A stretch of 64,000 nucleotides of DNA from an uncultured Candidatus Saccharibacteria bacterium (GTDB lineage: Bacteria > Patescibacteriota > Minisyncoccia > Phycocordibacterales > JACOZG01): assembly GCA_964460805.1 (NCBI GenBank), contig CAYWPU010000001.1, positions 112,565-176,564 of the forward strand. The letters run 5' to 3'. A program made the position numbers and the translations under genes. This document shows positions 11,958-62,909 of this stretch, one piece after another. Numbering within the stretch: position 1 is the stretch's first letter; every line of letters begins with the position of its first letter. The notes beneath the pieces were generated by a model. It had not been told where the DNA came from. It was given only the letters and a program-made list of their open reading frames with translations, and searched no databases.

Positions 11958-11988
11958 AGCCCTGTTTTGCCAGAACAGGGGAAAGCAC

Positions 11989-12017
11989 TTGACTTTTAAA
12001 CTCGTTTGGTATATAAT
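11989..12017 (+). promoter_or_regulatory. Sigma70-type promoter: TTGACT (11989-11994), 17-nt spacer, TATAAT (12012-12017)
   Basis: Near-consensus hexamers. Sits upstream of the conserved leader (12018-12092) and the gene at 12093. Confidence 0.6.
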
Positions 12018-12092
12018 AGGGGCTGCTAGAGCGTTTCTAGCTCTTTGAGAACGAGAACCCGTTTTTTGGCTAAACTGCCAAGAGGTGCAGAA
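12018..12092 (+). promoter_or_regulatory. Conserved structured 5' leader element (copy 1): GGGGCUGCUAGAGCGUUUCUAGCUCUUUGAGAACGAGAACCCGUUUUUUGGCUAAA. Possible attenuator or small RNA.
   Basis: Roughly 90% identical to 16216-16273. Contains the hairpin AGAGC-guuucua-GCUCU, and an outer GGG...CCC pairing followed by a U6 run. Confidence 0.45.
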
Positions 12093-12341
12093 ATGATTTT
12101 TACGGAAAAATATCCACCGATTTCACCTGGGACACGTGTCAAGACGATCCAAGAAGACAAAAGGGTCATCCAGAGTTATGGAGGAAAAAGAGAAAGTGTG
12201 CAATGGGGTGTTGAGGGTGAGGTGCTCTGTCATTCCGATTGTCATGGGCTTTGTTATTATGTCAGGCACGATGACGGAAGGTCTGTCACATACGCTTGGT
12301 ATGAGCCGACAGAACTGAAAGTTATCACTGACGAGAGGTGA
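12093..12341 (+). CDS. Hypothetical small protein (82 aa, Cys/His-containing: LCHSDCHGLCYYVRHDDG)
   Basis: ATG 12093 preceded by RBS agaggtg. No family recognised. Confidence 0.45.
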   Translation: MIFTEKYPPISPGTRVKTIQEDKRVIQSYGGKRESVQWGVEGEVLCHSDCHGLCYYVRHDDGRSVTYAWYEPTELKVITDER

Positions 12342-12442
12342 TCTGCTTTAAGTGTTCACCAACAGCGCCGTCCCAAATCTGGGTACGGCGCTTTTTTCTT
12401 TGCCTCAAAAACTTTTCTCGCTTAGAATGGAGGGACGAAAAA

Positions 12443-16183: not shown

Positions 16184-16187
16184 CCCC

Positions 16188-16215
16188 TTGACAAGTTCTA
16201 CCCATTTGCTATAAT
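16188..16215 (+). promoter_or_regulatory. Sigma70-type promoter (family copy): TTGACA (16188-16193), 16-nt spacer AGTTCTACCCATTTGC, extended TGcTATAAT (16210-16215)
   Basis: Identical or near-identical to the promoters at 62328-62355 and 62881-62909. Confidence 0.65.
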
Positions 16216-16299
16216 AGGGGTTGCTAGAGTGTTTCTAGCTCTTTGAGAACAAGAACCCGTTTTTTTTGGCTAAAAATATAGCCAGAAGGAGAAGAGGAA
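16216..16299 (+). promoter_or_regulatory. Conserved structured 5' leader element (copy 2)
   Basis: AGGGGTTGCTAGAGTGTTTCTAGCTCTTTGAGAACAAGAACCCGTTTTTTTTGGCTAAAAA, roughly 90% identical to 12018-12075. Followed by RBS GGAGAAGAGG and ATG 16300. Confidence 0.45.
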
Positions 16300-16677
16300 A
16301 TGAGGATCTTGATTGTGATATGGGTCGTGGGTCTGGCATTGCTCACCGGTTGTGATCCGCCTGAAGAAGGGGGCGGTGCGTTGCGGAAAACGAATCAGGC
16401 CCAAGTCATTGATCTTTCTGTCTGTCGGACAGTAGGGAATCACACATATATCCCTATCAAGAAGTGTGGTTTCAGCCCGGATGACATCCACGAAGAGATC
16501 CTCCAGATTCTCCAAGCCTTCGAGCAGAGACACCTAGATTGGGTTGTGATTAGCTGGGCTACAGAGGCCAATCATAATTCTCATTCATACCCGGCGAACA
16601 CTTATGGTCTGTGGGTCAATCACTTGCCAAGAGAGGAGCTGAGACAGCTCCTCTCTACCAGTCAGCCAGCAGGCTAA
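16300..16677 (+). CDS. Hypothetical lipoprotein
   Basis: Signal peptide with lipobox LLTGC. Strong RBS. No family recognised. Confidence 0.5.
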   Translation: MRILIVIWVVGLALLTGCDPPEEGGGALRKTNQAQVIDLSVCRTVGNHTYIPIKKCGFSPDDIHEEILQILQAFEQRHLDWVVISWATEANHNSHSYPANTYGLWVNHLPREELRQLLSTSQPAG

Positions 16678-16757
16678 TCTGGCTCGGCTAGATTCGGCCT
16701 CAATCGCGCTACCTCACAAGTAGCGCGATTTTTATTTATTGTGCTAAGCTAGTTGAT

Positions 16758-17240
16758 ATGAGAAAGCTGTTTATTAGTTTTGCGGTTTTGAGTTTATTCT
16801 TTATTTTTGCAATACCTGCGCGGGCGCAGTCTTCTGTGGATCACACTCAAATCGTTTCTATCTTAGAGCGCTTGGCCAGACTATTGCCGTCTCCTCTACT
16901 ACCGCCTTCGTCGTCTGGGATCCTGGTGATAGTGAGAGACGAGCCGCCGGCGATCAAGAGCGTGAGCGGTCCGGCAGAGCTGGCGGCGGGGGAGAACGGT
17001 AAGTGGTGGATCCGCGTTGCCGATCCCTCAGCCAGTCCGCTAGTCTACAGCGTGCGCTGGGGCGACGATGGCGAGCGCGTCCAGGCTACCAAAGCGCCTT
17101 CTTATATCCCGGATGTGAAGTATCAGACCATTGTTTTCAATCACACTTATCGTGATGCTGGAGTTTATCAGATTATCGTCAGCGCCACTGATCAGTTTGG
17201 GCAGACGGCCAGCAGAGAGCTAAGTGTTAAGGTGATTTGA
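16758..17240 (+). CDS. Secreted PKD-domain protein
   Basis: Signal peptide (FAIPARAQS). PKD-like segment YSVRWGDDGE...HTYRDAGVYQIIVSATDQFGQTAS. Confidence 0.5.
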   Translation: MRKLFISFAVLSLFFIFAIPARAQSSVDHTQIVSILERLARLLPSPLLPPSSSGILVIVRDEPPAIKSVSGPAELAAGENGKWWIRVADPSASPLVYSVRWGDDGERVQATKAPSYIPDVKYQTIVFNHTYRDAGVYQIIVSATDQFGQTASRELSVKVI

Positions 17241-17301
17241 CACTCTTAGCTAATCTGTTAAGATGAAGCACGCTCGCTAAGGCGGGTATTTTTCTCACTC
17301 A

Positions 17302-52181: not shown

Positions 52182-52340
52182 ACCGCCAGAATCTGGCTTA
52201 AATTAGACCCAGCTTTTTTCTTTTTCCAAATTTCTCAAATAGACTTGCTTTATTTTTTTATTTCTGCTAGACTAGTCCCCGTGGGTGCGGTTGCTGGCGC
52301 AAGCTGGCACTGCTCCGCTAAATGTAAATGTCTTGCGTAA

Positions 52341-52364
52341 GGCCCCCTCTCGTAGGGGGTTTTG
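52341..52364 (+). terminator. Hairpin CCCCCT-ctcgt-AGGGGG followed by TTTT
   Basis: 6-bp GC stem plus T-run, 160 nt downstream of the Wzy_C gene and inside the structured intergenic element. Confidence 0.45.
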
Positions 52365-52367
52365 CGT

Positions 52368-52398
52368 GTCCCGTTAGAAGCCTTGCTTCTAACGGGAC
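52368..52398. repeat. Perfect 13-bp inverted repeat GTCCCGTTAGAAG-ccttg-CTTCTAACGGGAC
   Basis: Same arms as 914-925 and 965-976 upstream of pilB. Confidence 0.6.
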
Positions 52399-52695
52399 GT
52401 GCCTGTTAAACTGCTGATAGTTTCTGCCCAGCCGTGGCTGGCGGTCGCACTCACGTAAAGACATTTAGTTTTTGGAGACAGCACCCGCTGGCCACGATTG
52501 CGCAGAAAACTTTTTAGAAAAATAAAAATTGCAGGAAATAAATTTTTACAAAATTTATTTCAAAAAAGTTATCCACATAATTAGTGAAAAATAATTGTTT
52601 CTGTTTTTGTTTTGACGGATAATTAATGCAAGAGCAACGATCACTAGTCGAGATTGTTGCGGAGGACTTTAAAAAATTTTCACGCAAAAAAACAA

Positions 52696-55317: not shown

Positions 55318-55550
55318 TTTAACTAAAGGACACTCCCACCTTGTCCTTTAAAAAATGTCCTAAATGAGCCATATTTTGGACATTAGGACATTTTTTGTCT
55401 TGGCGGGATAATCTGGTTAGGCTTAGATTGAGCGGAAAAGTGAGGGTAAACCCTTGCTTTTTTTATTGTCTCGTGATAGTTCTGTTGTCAGTTCTAGCTC
55501 ATTGACTCGCTCTTTTGAGGTTCGTCGGAATTATTTATTTATCAATTCTT

Positions 55551-57083
55551 ATGGCCCAAGAGAGCCGTTTGCTGCACAATTTGGTCTCTTTCTTGATCAT
55601 CCCGGCAGTGCTCGGGTTCTTCTTTGTGCCTGGCCATAAGGCGTTTGCCCAAGAGGTAGTTGCAGAGGCTGAGCCAGCGCCGGTAGTGGAAACTGTAGAA
55701 GTAGAAACTGTGGAAATCGTAGAGACAGAGGCTACAACTACAGAAACTACAGAGCCGGCGGTAGAGGCTATTGGAGACGAGGTGCCGGCTGAGGAGCCGG
55801 TGGCTCCTGCTCCAGAGCCTGAGGACTCAGAGGGAGTTGATGTAGTAGTAAAAGCTGAGTTAGAGGCAGGAGAAGTAGCGAGTGCTGAGGAGGGAGAACC
55901 CGTGATCGCAGAGTTGCCGGAGGTAGAGCAGGAGATTGTGGTTGAGATTGCTGAAGAAGTAGTCTCAACTGATGCTCCCGCTGAGCCAGCACTCTCTAGC
56001 ACAGACTCGCTCGCGATCAGCGCCGAGTTTGGCGGAGTGGCTCTTGTCTCGGTGAGCGAGAGCACCTTCACTACTGCGCCAGTCGCTATCGGCGGCTTGG
56101 CCATCTCGGCGGAGTACTCCTTCAGCACCAGTTCCAACGGCGGCGGTTGCACCAGCAATTGCGGCTCTGGCGGCTTGGCTATCTCTGCTGAGTTCAGCTT
56201 CAGCACTCTGGGCGGCGGCTTGGCGATTTCTGACGAACAATCTTTTACCACCACTTCCGATGACAGCGGTTGCACCAGCAATTGCGGCGGAGGCGGTGGA
56301 GGTGGCGGCGGTGGTCGACGCCCCCCTCGTCCCGAGGAGCCGGAGACACCCATCGTCCCGTGTCCTCTTTACCTCACGGAGTATATCCGTTTGGGTCGGG
56401 CCAATAATCCGCTGGAGGTGCGCAAGTTGCAGGCCTTCCTGAACGTCTTTGAGGGCGAGCGCTTGGCAATTACTGGCGTCTATAGCCAAGCTGACTTTGA
56501 CGCCGTGTCCCGCTTCCAGCGCAAGTACGGCGGCGATGTGCTCGCGCCTTGGGCGATTGACGACTCTACCGGTTACGTCTTCATCACCACGCGCCTGGCG
56601 GTTAATAATATCTATTGCCAGCGCAGCACAGCGCACGATCTGGACCTGAGCCGCTTCTATCCAGAGGTTTACCAGCTCAATTTGCCTGGGGCCGCTGGAG
56701 TGACAGAGGAGGTAAACGAGGCAGAAGCAGAAGCCGTGCCAGAGCTACCAGAGGAGTCAGCAGACTTGTCTCTAGGTGGCCGTCTCCAGCTGGCGGCGCT
56801 GGCGGTGCTTAATATTTTCAAACTTAGTCCGGTGCAGGCGCTCATTGCTCTGATCGGCTTTGCCGTGCTCTTTACGCTCTTGATTATCTGGCGCTTGAAT
56901 CGTTATCCGGACACTGAAGCGCCAACTGATACTGGACTTGAAGAAGACAATTTCTATCCAATTAATACTGATGATCTTGAAGAAATAGCCGAAGATGAGG
57001 TGATTATTGAAGATGATCCGGCTGGCGAGCTTGAGGCTGGCTCGGATGACCCCACCCAGCCGCCGCTTGACAGCATCAAGTAA
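55551..57083 (+). CDS. Secreted acidic repeat protein with a peptidoglycan-binding (PG_binding_1-like) domain and a C-terminal TM anchor
   Basis: Signal peptide ...AFA|QE. E/V/A-rich acidic region. Repeats GGLAISAEFSFST and CTSNCG. Gly10 run. LQAFLNVFEGERLAITGVYSQADFDAVSRFQRKYG. TM at roughly 56790-56900. Confidence 0.55.
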   Translation: MAQESRLLHNLVSFLIIPAVLGFFFVPGHKAFAQEVVAEAEPAPVVETVEVETVEIVETEATTTETTEPAVEAIGDEVPAEEPVAPAPEPEDSEGVDVVVKAELEAGEVASAEEGEPVIAELPEVEQEIVVEIAEEVVSTDAPAEPALSSTDSLAISAEFGGVALVSVSESTFTTAPVAIGGLAISAEYSFSTSSNGGGCTSNCGSGGLAISAEFSFSTLGGGLAISDEQSFTTTSDDSGCTSNCGGGGGGGGGGRRPPRPEEPETPIVPCPLYLTEYIRLGRANNPLEVRKLQAFLNVFEGERLAITGVYSQADFDAVSRFQRKYGGDVLAPWAIDDSTGYVFITTRLAVNNIYCQRSTAHDLDLSRFYPEVYQLNLPGAAGVTEEVNEAEAEAVPELPEESADLSLGGRLQLAALAVLNIFKLSPVQALIALIGFAVLFTLLIIWRLNRYPDTEAPTDTGLEEDNFYPINTDDLEEIAEDEVIIEDDPAGELEAGSDDPTQPPLDSIK

Positions 57084-62327: not shown

Positions 62328-62355
62328 TGCCAACGACTTGACAATTTCTGCCCAT
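62328..62355 (+). promoter_or_regulatory. Sigma70-type promoter (family copy): TTGACA, spacer ATTTCTGCCCATTTGC, TATACT
   Basis: Shares a 26/28-nt core with the promoters at 16188 and 62881. Sits upstream of the RRM-protein gene with a roughly 130-nt leader. Confidence 0.55.
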
Positions 62356-62485
62356 TTGCTATACTTGACCTTGTAAGTGTTTTCTCGCGATGTATTCTTA
62401 CGCTTTGGCGCTAAGGAGGACCAGGAGAAAAAGCTGGCAATAAGCTGGCAAAGTCGCCTTACACCATTGTTAAACAACTCAATAA

Positions 62486-62788
62486 ATGGCTAAGAAATTG
62501 TATGTCGGTGGCCTGCCTTACGCTACCACTGAGGATTCGCTGAAAAGCGCTTTCGCTCAGGCTGGTAACGTGGAGTCTGCCAACATCATCATGGATCGGA
62601 TGACCGGTCGCTCTAAGGGCTTCGGTTTCGTCCAGATGGTCACTGATGAGGAAGCCGACAAGGCTATTGAAATGTGGAACGGCAAGGAGTTTGAGGGTCG
62701 CAAGTTGACCGTCAACGAGGCCCGCCCACTGGAGGCTCGTCCTCCTCGCCGCAACGGCGGTTTCGATCGCGGTGGCAGCAACTGGTAA
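62486..62788 (+). CDS. RRM-type glycine-rich RNA-binding protein
   Basis: RNP2 KLYVGGLPY and RNP1 KGFGFVQM, with an RGG/Gly-rich tail. Confidence 0.85.
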   Translation: MAKKLYVGGLPYATTEDSLKSAFAQAGNVESANIIMDRMTGRSKGFGFVQMVTDEEADKAIEMWNGKEFEGRKLTVNEARPLEARPPRRNGGFDRGGSNW

Positions 62789-62880
62789 TTCACCAGTCCT
62801 GTGCACAAGAAAAACTCTCCCAGTAAAACGGGGGAGTTTTTCTTTTAGTTCTTGTTGTTTGTCTCAAGTCTTGACAATTT

Positions 62881-62909
62881 CTACCCATTTGCTATAATTG
62901 AGGCAGGAG
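62881..62909 (+). promoter_or_regulatory. Sigma70-type promoter (family copy): TTGACA, spacer ATTTCTACCCATTTGC, TATAAT
   Basis: Matches 16188-16215 except for one spacer base. ATG at 62918. Confidence 0.65.

What the first reader, a model, noticed from the sequence alone, without database searches (positions are those of the whole stretch)
12018..12092. Conserved roughly 60-nt 5' leader RNA present twice (12018-12075 and 16216-16273)
Immediately downstream of two of the promoters, the sequence AGGGG(C/T)TGCTAGAG(C/T)GTTTCTAGCTCTTTGAGAAC(G/A)AGAACCCGTTTTTT(T)GGCTAAA is about 90% identical between the two loci. The downstream genes are unrelated. One is an 82-aa Cys/His protein and the other a lipoprotein. 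The element folds into a hairpin (AGAGC/GCUCU) nested in a GGG...CCC helix, followed by a U-run. That is the architecture of an intrinsic attenuator, a riboswitch-like leader, or a tiny standalone sRNA.
Basis: seen in the sequence. Interest (0 to 1): 0.55.

Follow-up and report, generated by a model that had tools for sequence, protein, structure and literature searches.

The report
Duplicated promoter-proximal 5' leader in Parcubacteria
A roughly 58-base stretch directly after two strong promoters is a real 5' leader that is conserved in a sister species and was copied in front of an unrelated gene; it probably masks the ribosome-binding site rather than terminating transcription, and it is fairly ordinary.

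Summary
Two copies (12018-12075 and 16216-16275, + strand) are 95% identical over 56 nt. Each begins right after the -10 box of a near-consensus sigma-70 promoter and precedes an unrelated, monocistronic small gene.

A third copy sits at the orthologous M50-rpsL intergenic site of the closest available relative (ComEC 80% aa identity). There 37 of 44 positions match, and 25 of 26 in the core, while 4-fold-degenerate sites are only 49% identical. The element is therefore under selection.

I found no further copies in the window, in more distant relatives, or in public collections scanned with an exact 18-19-mer (IMG/VR also with the hairpin pattern). Rfam gave no hit.

The attenuator reading is weak:
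- The GGG...CCC helix is mismatched in 2 of 3 sequences.
- Its ensemble probability is at most 0.04.
- Its 5' arm probably lies upstream of the transcription start.
- No GC-rich stem abuts the U-run.

In all three leaders the U-run plus GGC pairs with GCC plus the Shine-Dalgarno sequence, although the 3' arms differ.

With three sequences there is no covariation, so no fold is proven.

Best reading: a lineage-restricted, propagated promoter-leader module that acts in cis on the mRNA by occluding the ribosome-binding site, with a hairpin near the 5' end. A DNA operator (palindrome GCTAGA-N5-TCTAGC) remains possible. Interest is modest.

The parts
11989..12017 (+). Promoter of copy 1: TTGACT, 17-nt spacer, TATAAT. 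The spacer is unrelated to that of copy 2.
   Evidence: 11 of 12 matches; sequence.
12018..12075 (+). Leader element, copy 1: AGGGGCTGCTAGAGCGTTTCTAGCTCTTTGAGAACGAGAACCCGTTTTTTGGCTAAAC.
   Evidence: 82 bits, E = 3e-22.
12025..12044 (+). Hairpin or palindrome region. GCTAGA (12025-12030) pairs with TCTAGC (12036-12041), -7.3 kcal/mol. The mutually exclusive alternative is AGAGC (12028-12032) with GCTCT (12040-12044).
12062..12085 (+). RBS-occluding hairpin. UUUUUUGGC (12062-12070) pairs with GCCAAGAGG (12077-12085), which contains the SD GAGG at 12082-12085.
   Evidence: -9.9 kcal/mol, z = -1.5; -9.5 kcal/mol for the 44-to-AUG stretch.
12093..12341 (+). 82-aa Cys/His-rich protein gene. It has homologues of about 50% identity in other contexts, none carrying the leader. 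A terminator hairpin and T-run follow at about 12365-12397.
   Evidence: terminator read.
16188..16215 (+). Promoter of copy 2: TTGACA, 16-nt spacer, TG-extended TATAAT. It belongs to a promoter family with a conserved spacer that recurs at 62337 and 62870 without the leader.
16216..16275 (+). Leader element, copy 2. This is the copy with an orthologue in the sister species (L041:13420-13477).
   Evidence: (110 bits).
16223..16242 (+). Hairpin or palindrome region of copy 2. GCTAGA (16223-16228) pairs with TCTAGC (16234-16239); the alternative is AGAGT with GCTCT.
16260..16291 (+). RBS-occluding hairpin of copy 2. UUUUUUUUGGCUA (16260-16272) pairs with UAGCCAGAAGGAG (16279-16291), which contains the SD AAGGAG.
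   Evidence: -13.2 kcal/mol, z = -4.1.
16300..16677 (+). 125-aa lipoprotein gene (lipobox LLTGC), an orphan in the protein database. It is followed by a strong terminator at 16702-16730.

Best explanation
The element is the promoter-proximal part (discriminator plus 5' untranslated leader) of a small expression module in a Patescibacteria/Parcubacteria genome.

Origin. The module was inherited at the M50-rpsL intergenic site. In the window's lineage it was copied once, from the -10 box through GGCTAAA, in front of an unrelated and probably horizontally acquired 82-aa gene.

Proposed mechanism (inferred, not shown). It acts in cis on the mRNA. Pyrimidine tracts of the leader pair with the purine-rich Shine-Dalgarno and start region, so the ribosome-binding site is occluded by default. 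The main tract is U6-8 followed by GGC; CUCUUUG is a second candidate. A hairpin at or near the 5' end (GCUAGA/UCUAGC or AGAGY/GCUCU) would stabilise the 5' end. It could also compete with pairing between the core and the ribosome-binding site.

The U-run is therefore an anti-SD arm, not a terminator tail. What relieves the occlusion, if anything, is unknown.
For: Shown:
- There are two copies at 95% identity directly after strong promoters and in front of unrelated monocistronic genes.
- An orthologous copy exists in L041. Positions 1-44 match at 37 of 44 (P about 2e-6) and the core at 25 of 26 (P about 3e-7), against 49% identity at 1089 four-fold-degenerate sites.
- The leader is better conserved than the protein it precedes. 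The downstream proteins share only a signal-peptide start (alignment).
- In all three leaders the U-run plus GGC pairs with GCC plus the SD, although the 3' arms differ in sequence and spacing. The energies are -9.9, -13.2 and -13.1 kcal/mol, with z = -1.5, -4.1 and -3.6.
- Sense-strand leaders fold at -20.7 to -22.2 kcal/mol (z = -1.8 to -2.5). The antisense strands fold at -11.2 to -16.5 kcal/mol (z = -0.05 to -1.9).
- Every minimum-free-energy fold pairs the SD or the AUG.
- The two other leaders examined in relatives, chosen because they share CUCUUUG, can pair it with their own SD. For L041:9243 this is a predicted fold. For L043:13559 it is read from the sequence.

Inferred:
- The similarity starts exactly at the -10 box, while the promoter spacers differ. 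This fits a transcribed or promoter-proximal function.
Against: - There are only three sequences, and two of them are orthologues. No pair shows a compensatory change, so no helix is proven.
- The cost of opening the ribosome-binding site (9.3-10.5 kcal/mol) is only moderately above the median of 8.1 for 14 other SD-led starts.
- The duplex energy between the core and the ribosome-binding site is not exceptional in the window copies (-12.2 and -11.8, against a mean of -8.5 with sd 3.2).
- A purine-rich SD will pair with any U-run.
- The predicted minimum-free-energy architecture differs between copies: a three-way junction in win1 and L041, two hairpins in win2.
- The 26-nt invariant core, loop bases included, is more sequence-constrained than a simple anti-SD hairpin would need. 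This hints at a protein or DNA-level partner.
- The transcription start site is not known.
Confidence: 0.45

Rival explanations
1. DNA operator. The perfect palindrome GCTAGA-N5-TCTAGC, lying at about +1 to +17, is the binding site of a dimeric repressor. It may act together with the direct repeat GAGAAC-(G/A)AGAAC. The repressor would co-regulate the two genes by blocking RNA polymerase.
For: - A 17-bp palindrome sits immediately downstream of the -10 box in all three copies.
- The 26-nt core is invariant even in positions that would be hairpin loop. This is typical of sequence-specific protein recognition.
- The substitutions fall in the spacer (position 15) or in the outermost half-site base (position 8).
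- Another palindrome lies at a promoter elsewhere in this genome (915-975).
Against: - Conservation extends about 40 nt beyond the palindrome, through CTCTTTGAGAAC...CCCGTTTTTTGGCTAA and on to the SD. An operator does not explain this.
- The sense strand folds clearly better than the antisense strand because of G-U pairs.
- No transcription-factor domain was found in the 10 neighbouring proteins scanned.
Confidence: 0.15
2. Constitutive high-expression leader. A 5'-terminal hairpin protects the mRNA from 5'-end-dependent decay, and the U-rich tract acts as an S1-type translational enhancer next to a strong SD. There is no regulation. This would be functionally analogous to the phage T7 gene 10 leader (comparison from memory).
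For: - The element is attached to the strongest consensus promoters in the region.
- It sits next to strong SDs in a genome where few genes passed my simple first-ATG-plus-SD filter.
- If transcription starts at G8, as expected about 7 nt after the -10 box, the GCUAGA/UCUAGC hairpin (-7.3 kcal/mol) lies exactly at the 5' end.
- The module was reused for an unrelated gene.
Against: - The U-run is predicted to be paired with the SD at -9.5 to -13 kcal/mol rather than free. That should inhibit initiation, not enhance it.
- In L041 the outermost pair of the 5' hairpin is lost.
Confidence: 0.2
3. One reading: a transcription attenuator or short terminated sRNA. The 5' domain closed by GGG/CCC, followed by the U-run, terminates a fraction of transcripts after about 50 nt. 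The CU-rich single strand CUCUUUGAGAAC could then act as a seed in trans.
For: - In isolation, positions 1-44 fold with a GGG(UU)/(AA)CCC closing helix (-10.7, -12.3 and -7.9 kcal/mol), one nucleotide before a run of 6-8 U.
- The leader is more conserved than the downstream coding sequence.
Against: - The closing helix has a mismatch in 2 of 3 sequences.
- Its ensemble probability is at most 0.04 once the rest of the leader is present.
- The GGG lies 2-5 nt after the -10 hexamer, so it is probably not transcribed. This is an inference from sigma-70 spacing. The same AGGGGTTG follows the -10 box of an unrelated leader.
- The terminator scan does not flag the element. Genuine terminators in this genome have 7-11-bp GC-rich stems (sequence).
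- The window holds no excess of sites complementary to the putative seed: 8 found, two of which are the element's own opposite strand, against 6.5 expected.
Confidence: 0.1
4. Functionless relic. A recent segmental duplication, or a fragment of a mobile element, that happens to lie next to two promoters.
For: - The family has only two members in the window.
- The copy boundaries are sharp.
- The distribution is very narrow.
Against: - The orthologous copy in L041 is conserved at 84% (core 96%) where neutral sites are 49% identical and the upstream flank cannot be aligned.
- Position and orientation relative to the -10 box and the SD are identical in all three copies.
Confidence: 0.05

Closest known systems
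Putative mobile promoters (PMPs; Matus-Garcia et al. 2012, PMC3488235)
   Same: The definition is more than 50 nt at 80% identity or better, within the roughly 150 nt upstream of the start codons of non-homologous CDSs, with non-homologous upstream CDSs. This pair meets every criterion. Two-member families with about 92% identity and about 66 nt are the commonest class in that survey.
   Different: - Only the -10 box and the leader are shared; the -35 box and the spacer differ.
- PMP is an operational category with no implied mechanism.
- One copy here is also conserved at the orthologous site of another species.
fourU-type RNA thermometers (PMC3185406, PMC10586365)
   Same: A run of at least four U in a 5'-UTR hairpin pairs with the SD through weak U-A and U-G pairs.
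   Different: - There is no Rfam hit to any thermometer model above noise.
- The predicted hairpins are too stable: at 37 C the SD core of the isolated hairpin is only 11-28% unpaired, and half-opening needs about 50-65 C.
- The downstream genes are not heat-shock or virulence genes.
- There is an extra 26-nt invariant upstream core.
Intrinsic terminators and transcription attenuators
   Same: A structured segment is followed by a run of 6-8 U shortly after a promoter.
   Different: - No GC-rich stem adjoins the U-run.
- The only adjoining helix is 3-5 bp, branched, not conserved, and probably partly untranscribed.
- No terminator/antiterminator pair is evident.
5'-terminal stabiliser hairpins and expression leaders (E. 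coli ompA 5' UTR, phage T7 gene 10 leader; from memory)
   Same: A hairpin at or within a few nucleotides of the expected 5' end is followed by a U-rich segment and a strong SD, on a strong promoter.
   Different: There is no sequence relationship. The function is untested, and the U-rich segment is predicted to be base-paired with the SD.

Membership tests
Intrinsic terminator / attenuator | A stable, usually GC-rich stem-loop ends within about 2 nt of the U-tract. | tested here: not met
   - The scan does not list it.
- The only adjoining helix (GGGUU/AACCC) has a mismatch in 2 of 3 sequences.
- That helix has an ensemble probability of at most 0.04.
Intrinsic terminator / attenuator | A U-tract of at least 5 U lies downstream of the stem. 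| tested here: met
   T6 at 12062-12067, T8 at 16260-16267, and T7 in L041.
Intrinsic terminator / attenuator | Both arms of the terminator stem are transcribed. | not testable with these tools
   The transcription start site is unknown. The GGG arm lies 2-5 nt after TATAAT, whereas sigma-70 starts usually lie about 7 nt after it (established knowledge).
fourU RNA thermometer | Four or more consecutive U are paired with the SD in a 5'-UTR hairpin. | tested here: met
   All three leaders qualify; definition taken from PMC3185406 and PMC10586365.
fourU RNA thermometer | The hairpin melts within the physiological temperature range. | tested here: inconclusive
   This was tested in silico only. 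The SD core of the isolated hairpin is 2-21% unpaired at 5-25 C. It reaches about 50% at roughly 50 C in L041 and about 65 C in the window copies. This argues against a thermometer, but the prediction is crude.
fourU RNA thermometer | The sequence matches the curated family model. | tested here: not met
   No FourU hit at E <= 10.
Riboswitch or any described cis-regulatory RNA (Rfam 15) | The sequence matches a curated covariance model. | tested here: not met
   There were 0 hits at gathering score. There were 0 hits at E <= 10 for copy 1 and only noise for copy 2 (best 15 bits against a gathering score of 56).
Riboswitch or any described cis-regulatory RNA (Rfam 15) | A conserved secondary structure is supported by covariation. 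| tested here: inconclusive
   There are 0 compensatory pairs in three sequences, and the shuffles are uninformative.
Putative mobile promoter (PMP) | More than 50 nt at 80% identity or better, within about 150 nt upstream of the start codons. | tested here: met
   56 nt at 95%, lying 26-81 nt and 35-90 nt upstream of the two ATGs (criteria).
Putative mobile promoter (PMP) | The downstream and upstream CDSs are non-homologous. | tested here: met
   Downstream proteins: E = 0.85. Upstream genes: RecJ versus an M50 peptidase.
Repressor operator | An inverted repeat overlaps the promoter or the start site. | tested here: met
   GCTAGA-N5-TCTAGC starts 8 nt after TATAAT.
Repressor operator | A cognate DNA-binding protein exists and binds the site. 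| not testable with these tools
   No transcription-factor domain was found in the 10 neighbouring proteins scanned. The rest of the genome was not available.
Stand-alone sRNA | It has its own terminator and no coupled downstream ORF. | tested here: not met
   No terminator lies before the SD. An SD and an ORF follow within 20-35 nt in all three copies.

The most novel reading that the evidence does not exclude
The 26-nt invariant core together with the U-run/SD hairpin could be a new Patescibacteria-specific riboregulator. In one form it would be a bistable leader in which a ligand, an RNA-binding protein (for example the RRM protein encoded at 62486-62788) or a trans RNA shifts the balance. 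The two states would be a 5' hairpin with an open ribosome-binding site, and a three-way junction in which CGUUUCU and CUCUUUG pair with the AUG and the SD. In another form it would be a dual-function leader whose CU-rich single strand also acts in trans. The predicted energies of the alternative states differ by only 2-3.5 kcal/mol in each leader.
Probability: 0.12. Interest if true: 0.55.

Novelty: new member of a known kind. Interest (0 to 1): 0.3.

Why it matters
Gene regulation in Patescibacteria (CPR) is almost unexplored, and very few regulatory RNAs are known there. A selected, reusable promoter-leader module in front of variable small secreted or unknown proteins would be a concrete handle on how these reduced genomes express newly acquired genes. 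It also illustrates promoter/leader propagation.

The element is restricted to two sister species as far as the data reach. It has no demonstrated structure or ligand, and it fits a common class: two-member duplicated upstream regions with a leader that occludes the SD. It is a useful but modest lead.

Tried and rejected
1. Exact 19-mer and 18-mer core scans of GTDB representative genomes, JGI metagenomes and IMG/VR, a second hairpin pattern in IMG/VR, and blastn against phages. All hits have unrelated flanks or are short, non-significant matches (E >= 3), and their number is about what I estimate by chance.

2. Does the element travel with the 82-aa gene family? No. Homologues of about 50% identity (P0003-P0006) lie in other contexts, one of them phage-like, without the element. 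The lipoprotein is an orphan.

3. More distant syntenic relatives (L042 Nomurabacteria-like, L043/L044, L050; ComEC 55-63% identity). nhmmer and a covariance model run with filters off find nothing.

4. Extending the window's contig. One look-up missed and the other returned only short same-species contigs.

5. Leader peptide. The TTG at 12045 has no SD, and the frame and length are not conserved because the T-run length differs. Rejected from the sequences.

6. Co-adaptation between the core and the ribosome-binding site. Duplex energies and RBS opening energies are not outliers. The first two controls were also compromised by mis-called starts.

7. CTCTTTG as an enriched motif. It is common in coding sequence.

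8. Resemblance to the U7 snRNA 5' end and to STnc490. Both are far below their gathering scores and are chance matches.

9. Trans targets complementary to the core within the window. There is no excess.

10. Cluster look-up to name the organism. No names were returned.

Full report
**1. The observation**

The repeat finder pairs 12012-12067 with 16210-16265: 56 nt at 95% identity. The differences are three substitutions (element positions 6, 15 and 36, counting from the A after TATAAT) and a T-run of 6 versus 8 nt.

A 28-nt degenerate core occurs exactly twice, with 0.00 expected in shuffles. Sub-motif searches with mismatches, an nhmmer profile and a covariance model run with filters off find no third copy in the 64 kb.

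Each copy begins immediately after the -10 hexamer of one of the two best sigma-70-type promoters in the region. The promoter at 11989-12017 scores 11/12 and the one at 16188-16215 scores 12/12.

Each copy is followed by an SD, a small ORF and a terminator, so both units are monocistronic.
- The first ORF encodes an 82-aa Cys/His-rich protein.
- The second encodes a 125-aa protein with the lipobox LLTGC.
- The two proteins are unrelated, and neither has a Pfam domain.

**2. Context and modularity**

Named homologues of the ComEC gene that lies between the two copies are from Nomurabacteria, Kaiserbacteria and Paceibacterota. The organism is therefore a Patescibacteria/Parcubacteria bacterium.

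The neighbouring genes are housekeeping genes. In order they are RecJ, copy 1 with the 82-aa gene, RNase H, ComEC, an MBL hydrolase, an M50 peptidase, copy 2 with the lipoprotein, a PKD protein, rpsL, rpsG and fusA.

The promoter of copy 2 belongs to a family with a conserved spacer (CTTGACAAnTTCTnCCCATTTGCTATAAT). This family recurs at 62337 and 62870 without the leader. Copy 1 has a different -35 box and spacer.

The similarity between the two copies therefore begins at the -10 box and ends at GGCTAAA. This is a sharply bounded promoter-proximal module.

**3. Distribution**

- Same-species contigs from several sequencing runs carry identical copies.
- Exact 19-mer or 18-mer scans of 185,579 representative genomes, JGI metagenomes and IMG/VR gave only hits with unrelated flanks. 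So did a second pattern in IMG/VR. The number of hits is about what I estimate by chance. blastn against phage genomes gave only short, non-significant matches.
- Homologues of the 82-aa protein (about 50% identity) lie in other genomic contexts, one of them phage-like, and lack the element.
- The lipoprotein has no homologue at all.

The closest available relative is contig L041, with ComEC at 80% amino-acid identity and conserved gene order. It has one copy at the orthologous M50-rpsL site (L041:13420-13477), upstream of a 72-aa membrane protein. That protein shares only a signal-peptide-like start with the lipoprotein (nucleotide alignment).

At the RecJ-RNase H site, L041 has the family-A promoter, the same AGGGGTTG, and then an unrelated leader and an unrelated 67-aa ORF.

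More distant syntenic relatives (ComEC 55-63% identity: L042, L043/L044, L050) have no copy.

**4. Selection**

Between the window and L041, four-fold-degenerate sites in eight orthologous genes are 49.4% identical (1089 sites). The flank upstream of the -10 box does not align.

Against that background:
- element positions 1-44 are 37/44 identical (P about 2e-6);
- positions 9-34 are 25/26 identical (P about 3e-7);
- conservation continues through the T-run, GGC, and ATAGCCAGA-GGAG up to the SD.

The element is under purifying selection and is better conserved than the protein downstream of it.

Both window copies differ from the L041 copy at 7 of 44 positions, but from each other at only 3. 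Copy 1 is therefore most simply a duplication within the window's lineage, placed in front of a gene whose relatives include a copy on a phage-like contig.

**5. Structure**

Its ensemble probability is at most 0.04 in full-length leaders.

Its 5' arm lies 2-5 nt after TATAAT. With the usual sigma-70 spacing (start about 7 nt after the -10 box; established knowledge, not tested) it is probably discriminator DNA and not RNA. The same AGGGGTTG following the -10 box of an unrelated L041 leader supports this.

No GC-rich stem abuts the U-run, and the terminator scan does not list it. Real terminators nearby have 7-11-bp GC-rich stems.

Two mutually exclusive small hairpins are possible:
- GCUAGA/UCUAGC, at -7.3 kcal/mol. 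Its outermost pair is lost in L041.
- AGAGY/GCUCU, which is intact in all three sequences. The one change turns C-G into U-G.

In all three leaders the U-run plus GGC pairs with GCC plus the purine-rich SD, even though the 3' arms differ in sequence and spacing. The energies are -9.9, -13.2 and -13.1 kcal/mol, with z = -1.5, -4.1 and -3.6.

The U-run can alternatively pair with the upstream GAGAAC. The closing pair of that helix is G-C in copy 1, an A/C mismatch in copy 2 and A-U in L041. I read this by hand. It is suggestive only.

For copy 1 and L041 the minimum-free-energy fold is a three-way junction in which CGUUUCU pairs with the AUG region and CUCUUUG pairs with the SD. For copy 2 it is two hairpins. 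The alternative states lie within 2-3.5 kcal/mol of each other.

Sense-strand leaders fold better than their shuffles (z = -1.8 to -2.5) and better than the antisense strand.

None of this is backed by covariation. There are no compensatory pairs, and the shuffles are uninformative with three sequences.

The controls I devised were negative:
- core-RBS duplex energies are not exceptional in the window copies;
- RBS opening energies (9.3-10.5 kcal/mol) are only moderately above the median of 8.1 for 14 other SD-led starts.

**6. Mechanism**

The best-supported reading is a cis-acting mRNA leader that occludes the ribosome-binding site, with a hairpin near the 5' end. The U-run is an anti-SD arm rather than a terminator tail.

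Two other leaders in relatives, picked out because they share CUCUUUG, can also pair it with their own SD. For L041:9243 this is a predicted fold. For L043:13559 it is read from the sequence. SD masking may therefore be a recurring device for strongly promoted small genes in this lineage.

Predicted melting does not support a thermometer. At 5-25 C the SD core of the isolated hairpin is 2-21% unpaired, and half-opening needs about 50-65 C.

A DNA operator remains a real rival because of the perfect palindrome GCTAGA-N5-TCTAGC at about +1 to +17 and the invariance of the bases that would form the loop. However, an operator does not explain the further 40 nt of conservation.

A constitutive stabiliser/enhancer leader is also possible. 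An attenuator or a short sRNA is the least supported functional reading.

**7. Comparison with known systems**

Rfam 15 has no match at gathering score. At E <= 10 there are no hits for copy 1 and only noise for copy 2.

The pair satisfies every operational criterion of a 'putative mobile promoter': more than 50 nt at 80% identity or better, upstream of non-homologous CDSs with non-homologous upstream genes (PMC3488235). Two-member families of about this size and identity are the commonest case in that survey.

It resembles fourU thermometers in that a U-run pairs with the SD (definitions from PMC3185406 and PMC10586365). It fails the family model and the predicted melting behaviour, and it lacks the usual gene association.

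It is not a member of any described RNA family.

**8. Verdict**

This is a real, selected, lineage-restricted promoter-leader module duplicated onto an unrelated gene.

It is a new member of a known kind: a propagated upstream region with an SD-masking leader. Interest is modest at 0.3.

The most novel reading not excluded is a Patescibacteria-specific bistable riboregulator or dual-function leader. I give it about 12% probability.

Noticed in passing
window 52265-52480 (+), and 915-975: A roughly 215-nt intergenic stretch folds at -101 kcal/mol, z = -6.0 against shuffles. It has no Rfam hit and no tmRNA call. It contains the hairpin CCCGTTAGAAG...CTTCTAACGGG, and the same arms occur at 915-975 just upstream of a TATAAT, ahead of the ATG at 989. 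This is a candidate unclassified structured RNA and/or a shared operator.
   Followed up: partly
window 16187-16215, 62337-62365, 62870-62898; L041:9178-9208; L043:13517-13545: A promoter family shares a conserved spacer (CTTGACAAnTTCTnCCCATTTGCTATAAT in the window; the spacer is only partly conserved in the relatives). It drives an RRM RNA-binding protein with a roughly 120-nt 5' UTR, a 97-aa Trp-rich small protein, and leader copy 2. Related versions occur in relatives. Logan contigs L011-L013 start in or just upstream of this promoter, which could reflect its being repeated in the genome.
   Followed up: partly
window 11958-12442 and 16184-17301, compared with L041, L042, L043, L050: The RecJ-RNase H and M50-rpsL intergenic sites are variable islets. 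Each relative carries different small ORFs there, or none, between conserved housekeeping genes.
   Followed up: partly
L043:9310-9530: Between RecJ and RNase H this relative has a consensus-like promoter, about 190 nt without an ORF, and a strong terminator. This is a candidate ncRNA gene. There is no Rfam hit at gathering score.
   Followed up: partly
L016 (homologue P0006 of the 82-aa protein): The 82-aa protein family also occurs on a phage-like contig. That contig is densely packed with small ORFs and carries Ku, LigD_N, AcrVA2-like and ScoMcrA_N domains. This suggests the window's gene was acquired horizontally.
   Followed up: no
window, genome-wide: Only about 14 genes in the window plus three relatives' loci passed a simple filter (first ATG, with an SD motif). 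The rpsL start read in L041 shows no SD. The leader-linked small genes have unusually strong SDs.
   Followed up: no
window 56090-56296: There are tandem 78-123-nt direct repeats (77-84% identity) inside the 522-aa ORF at 55515-57083. This is a repeat-containing, probably surface, protein.
   Followed up: no
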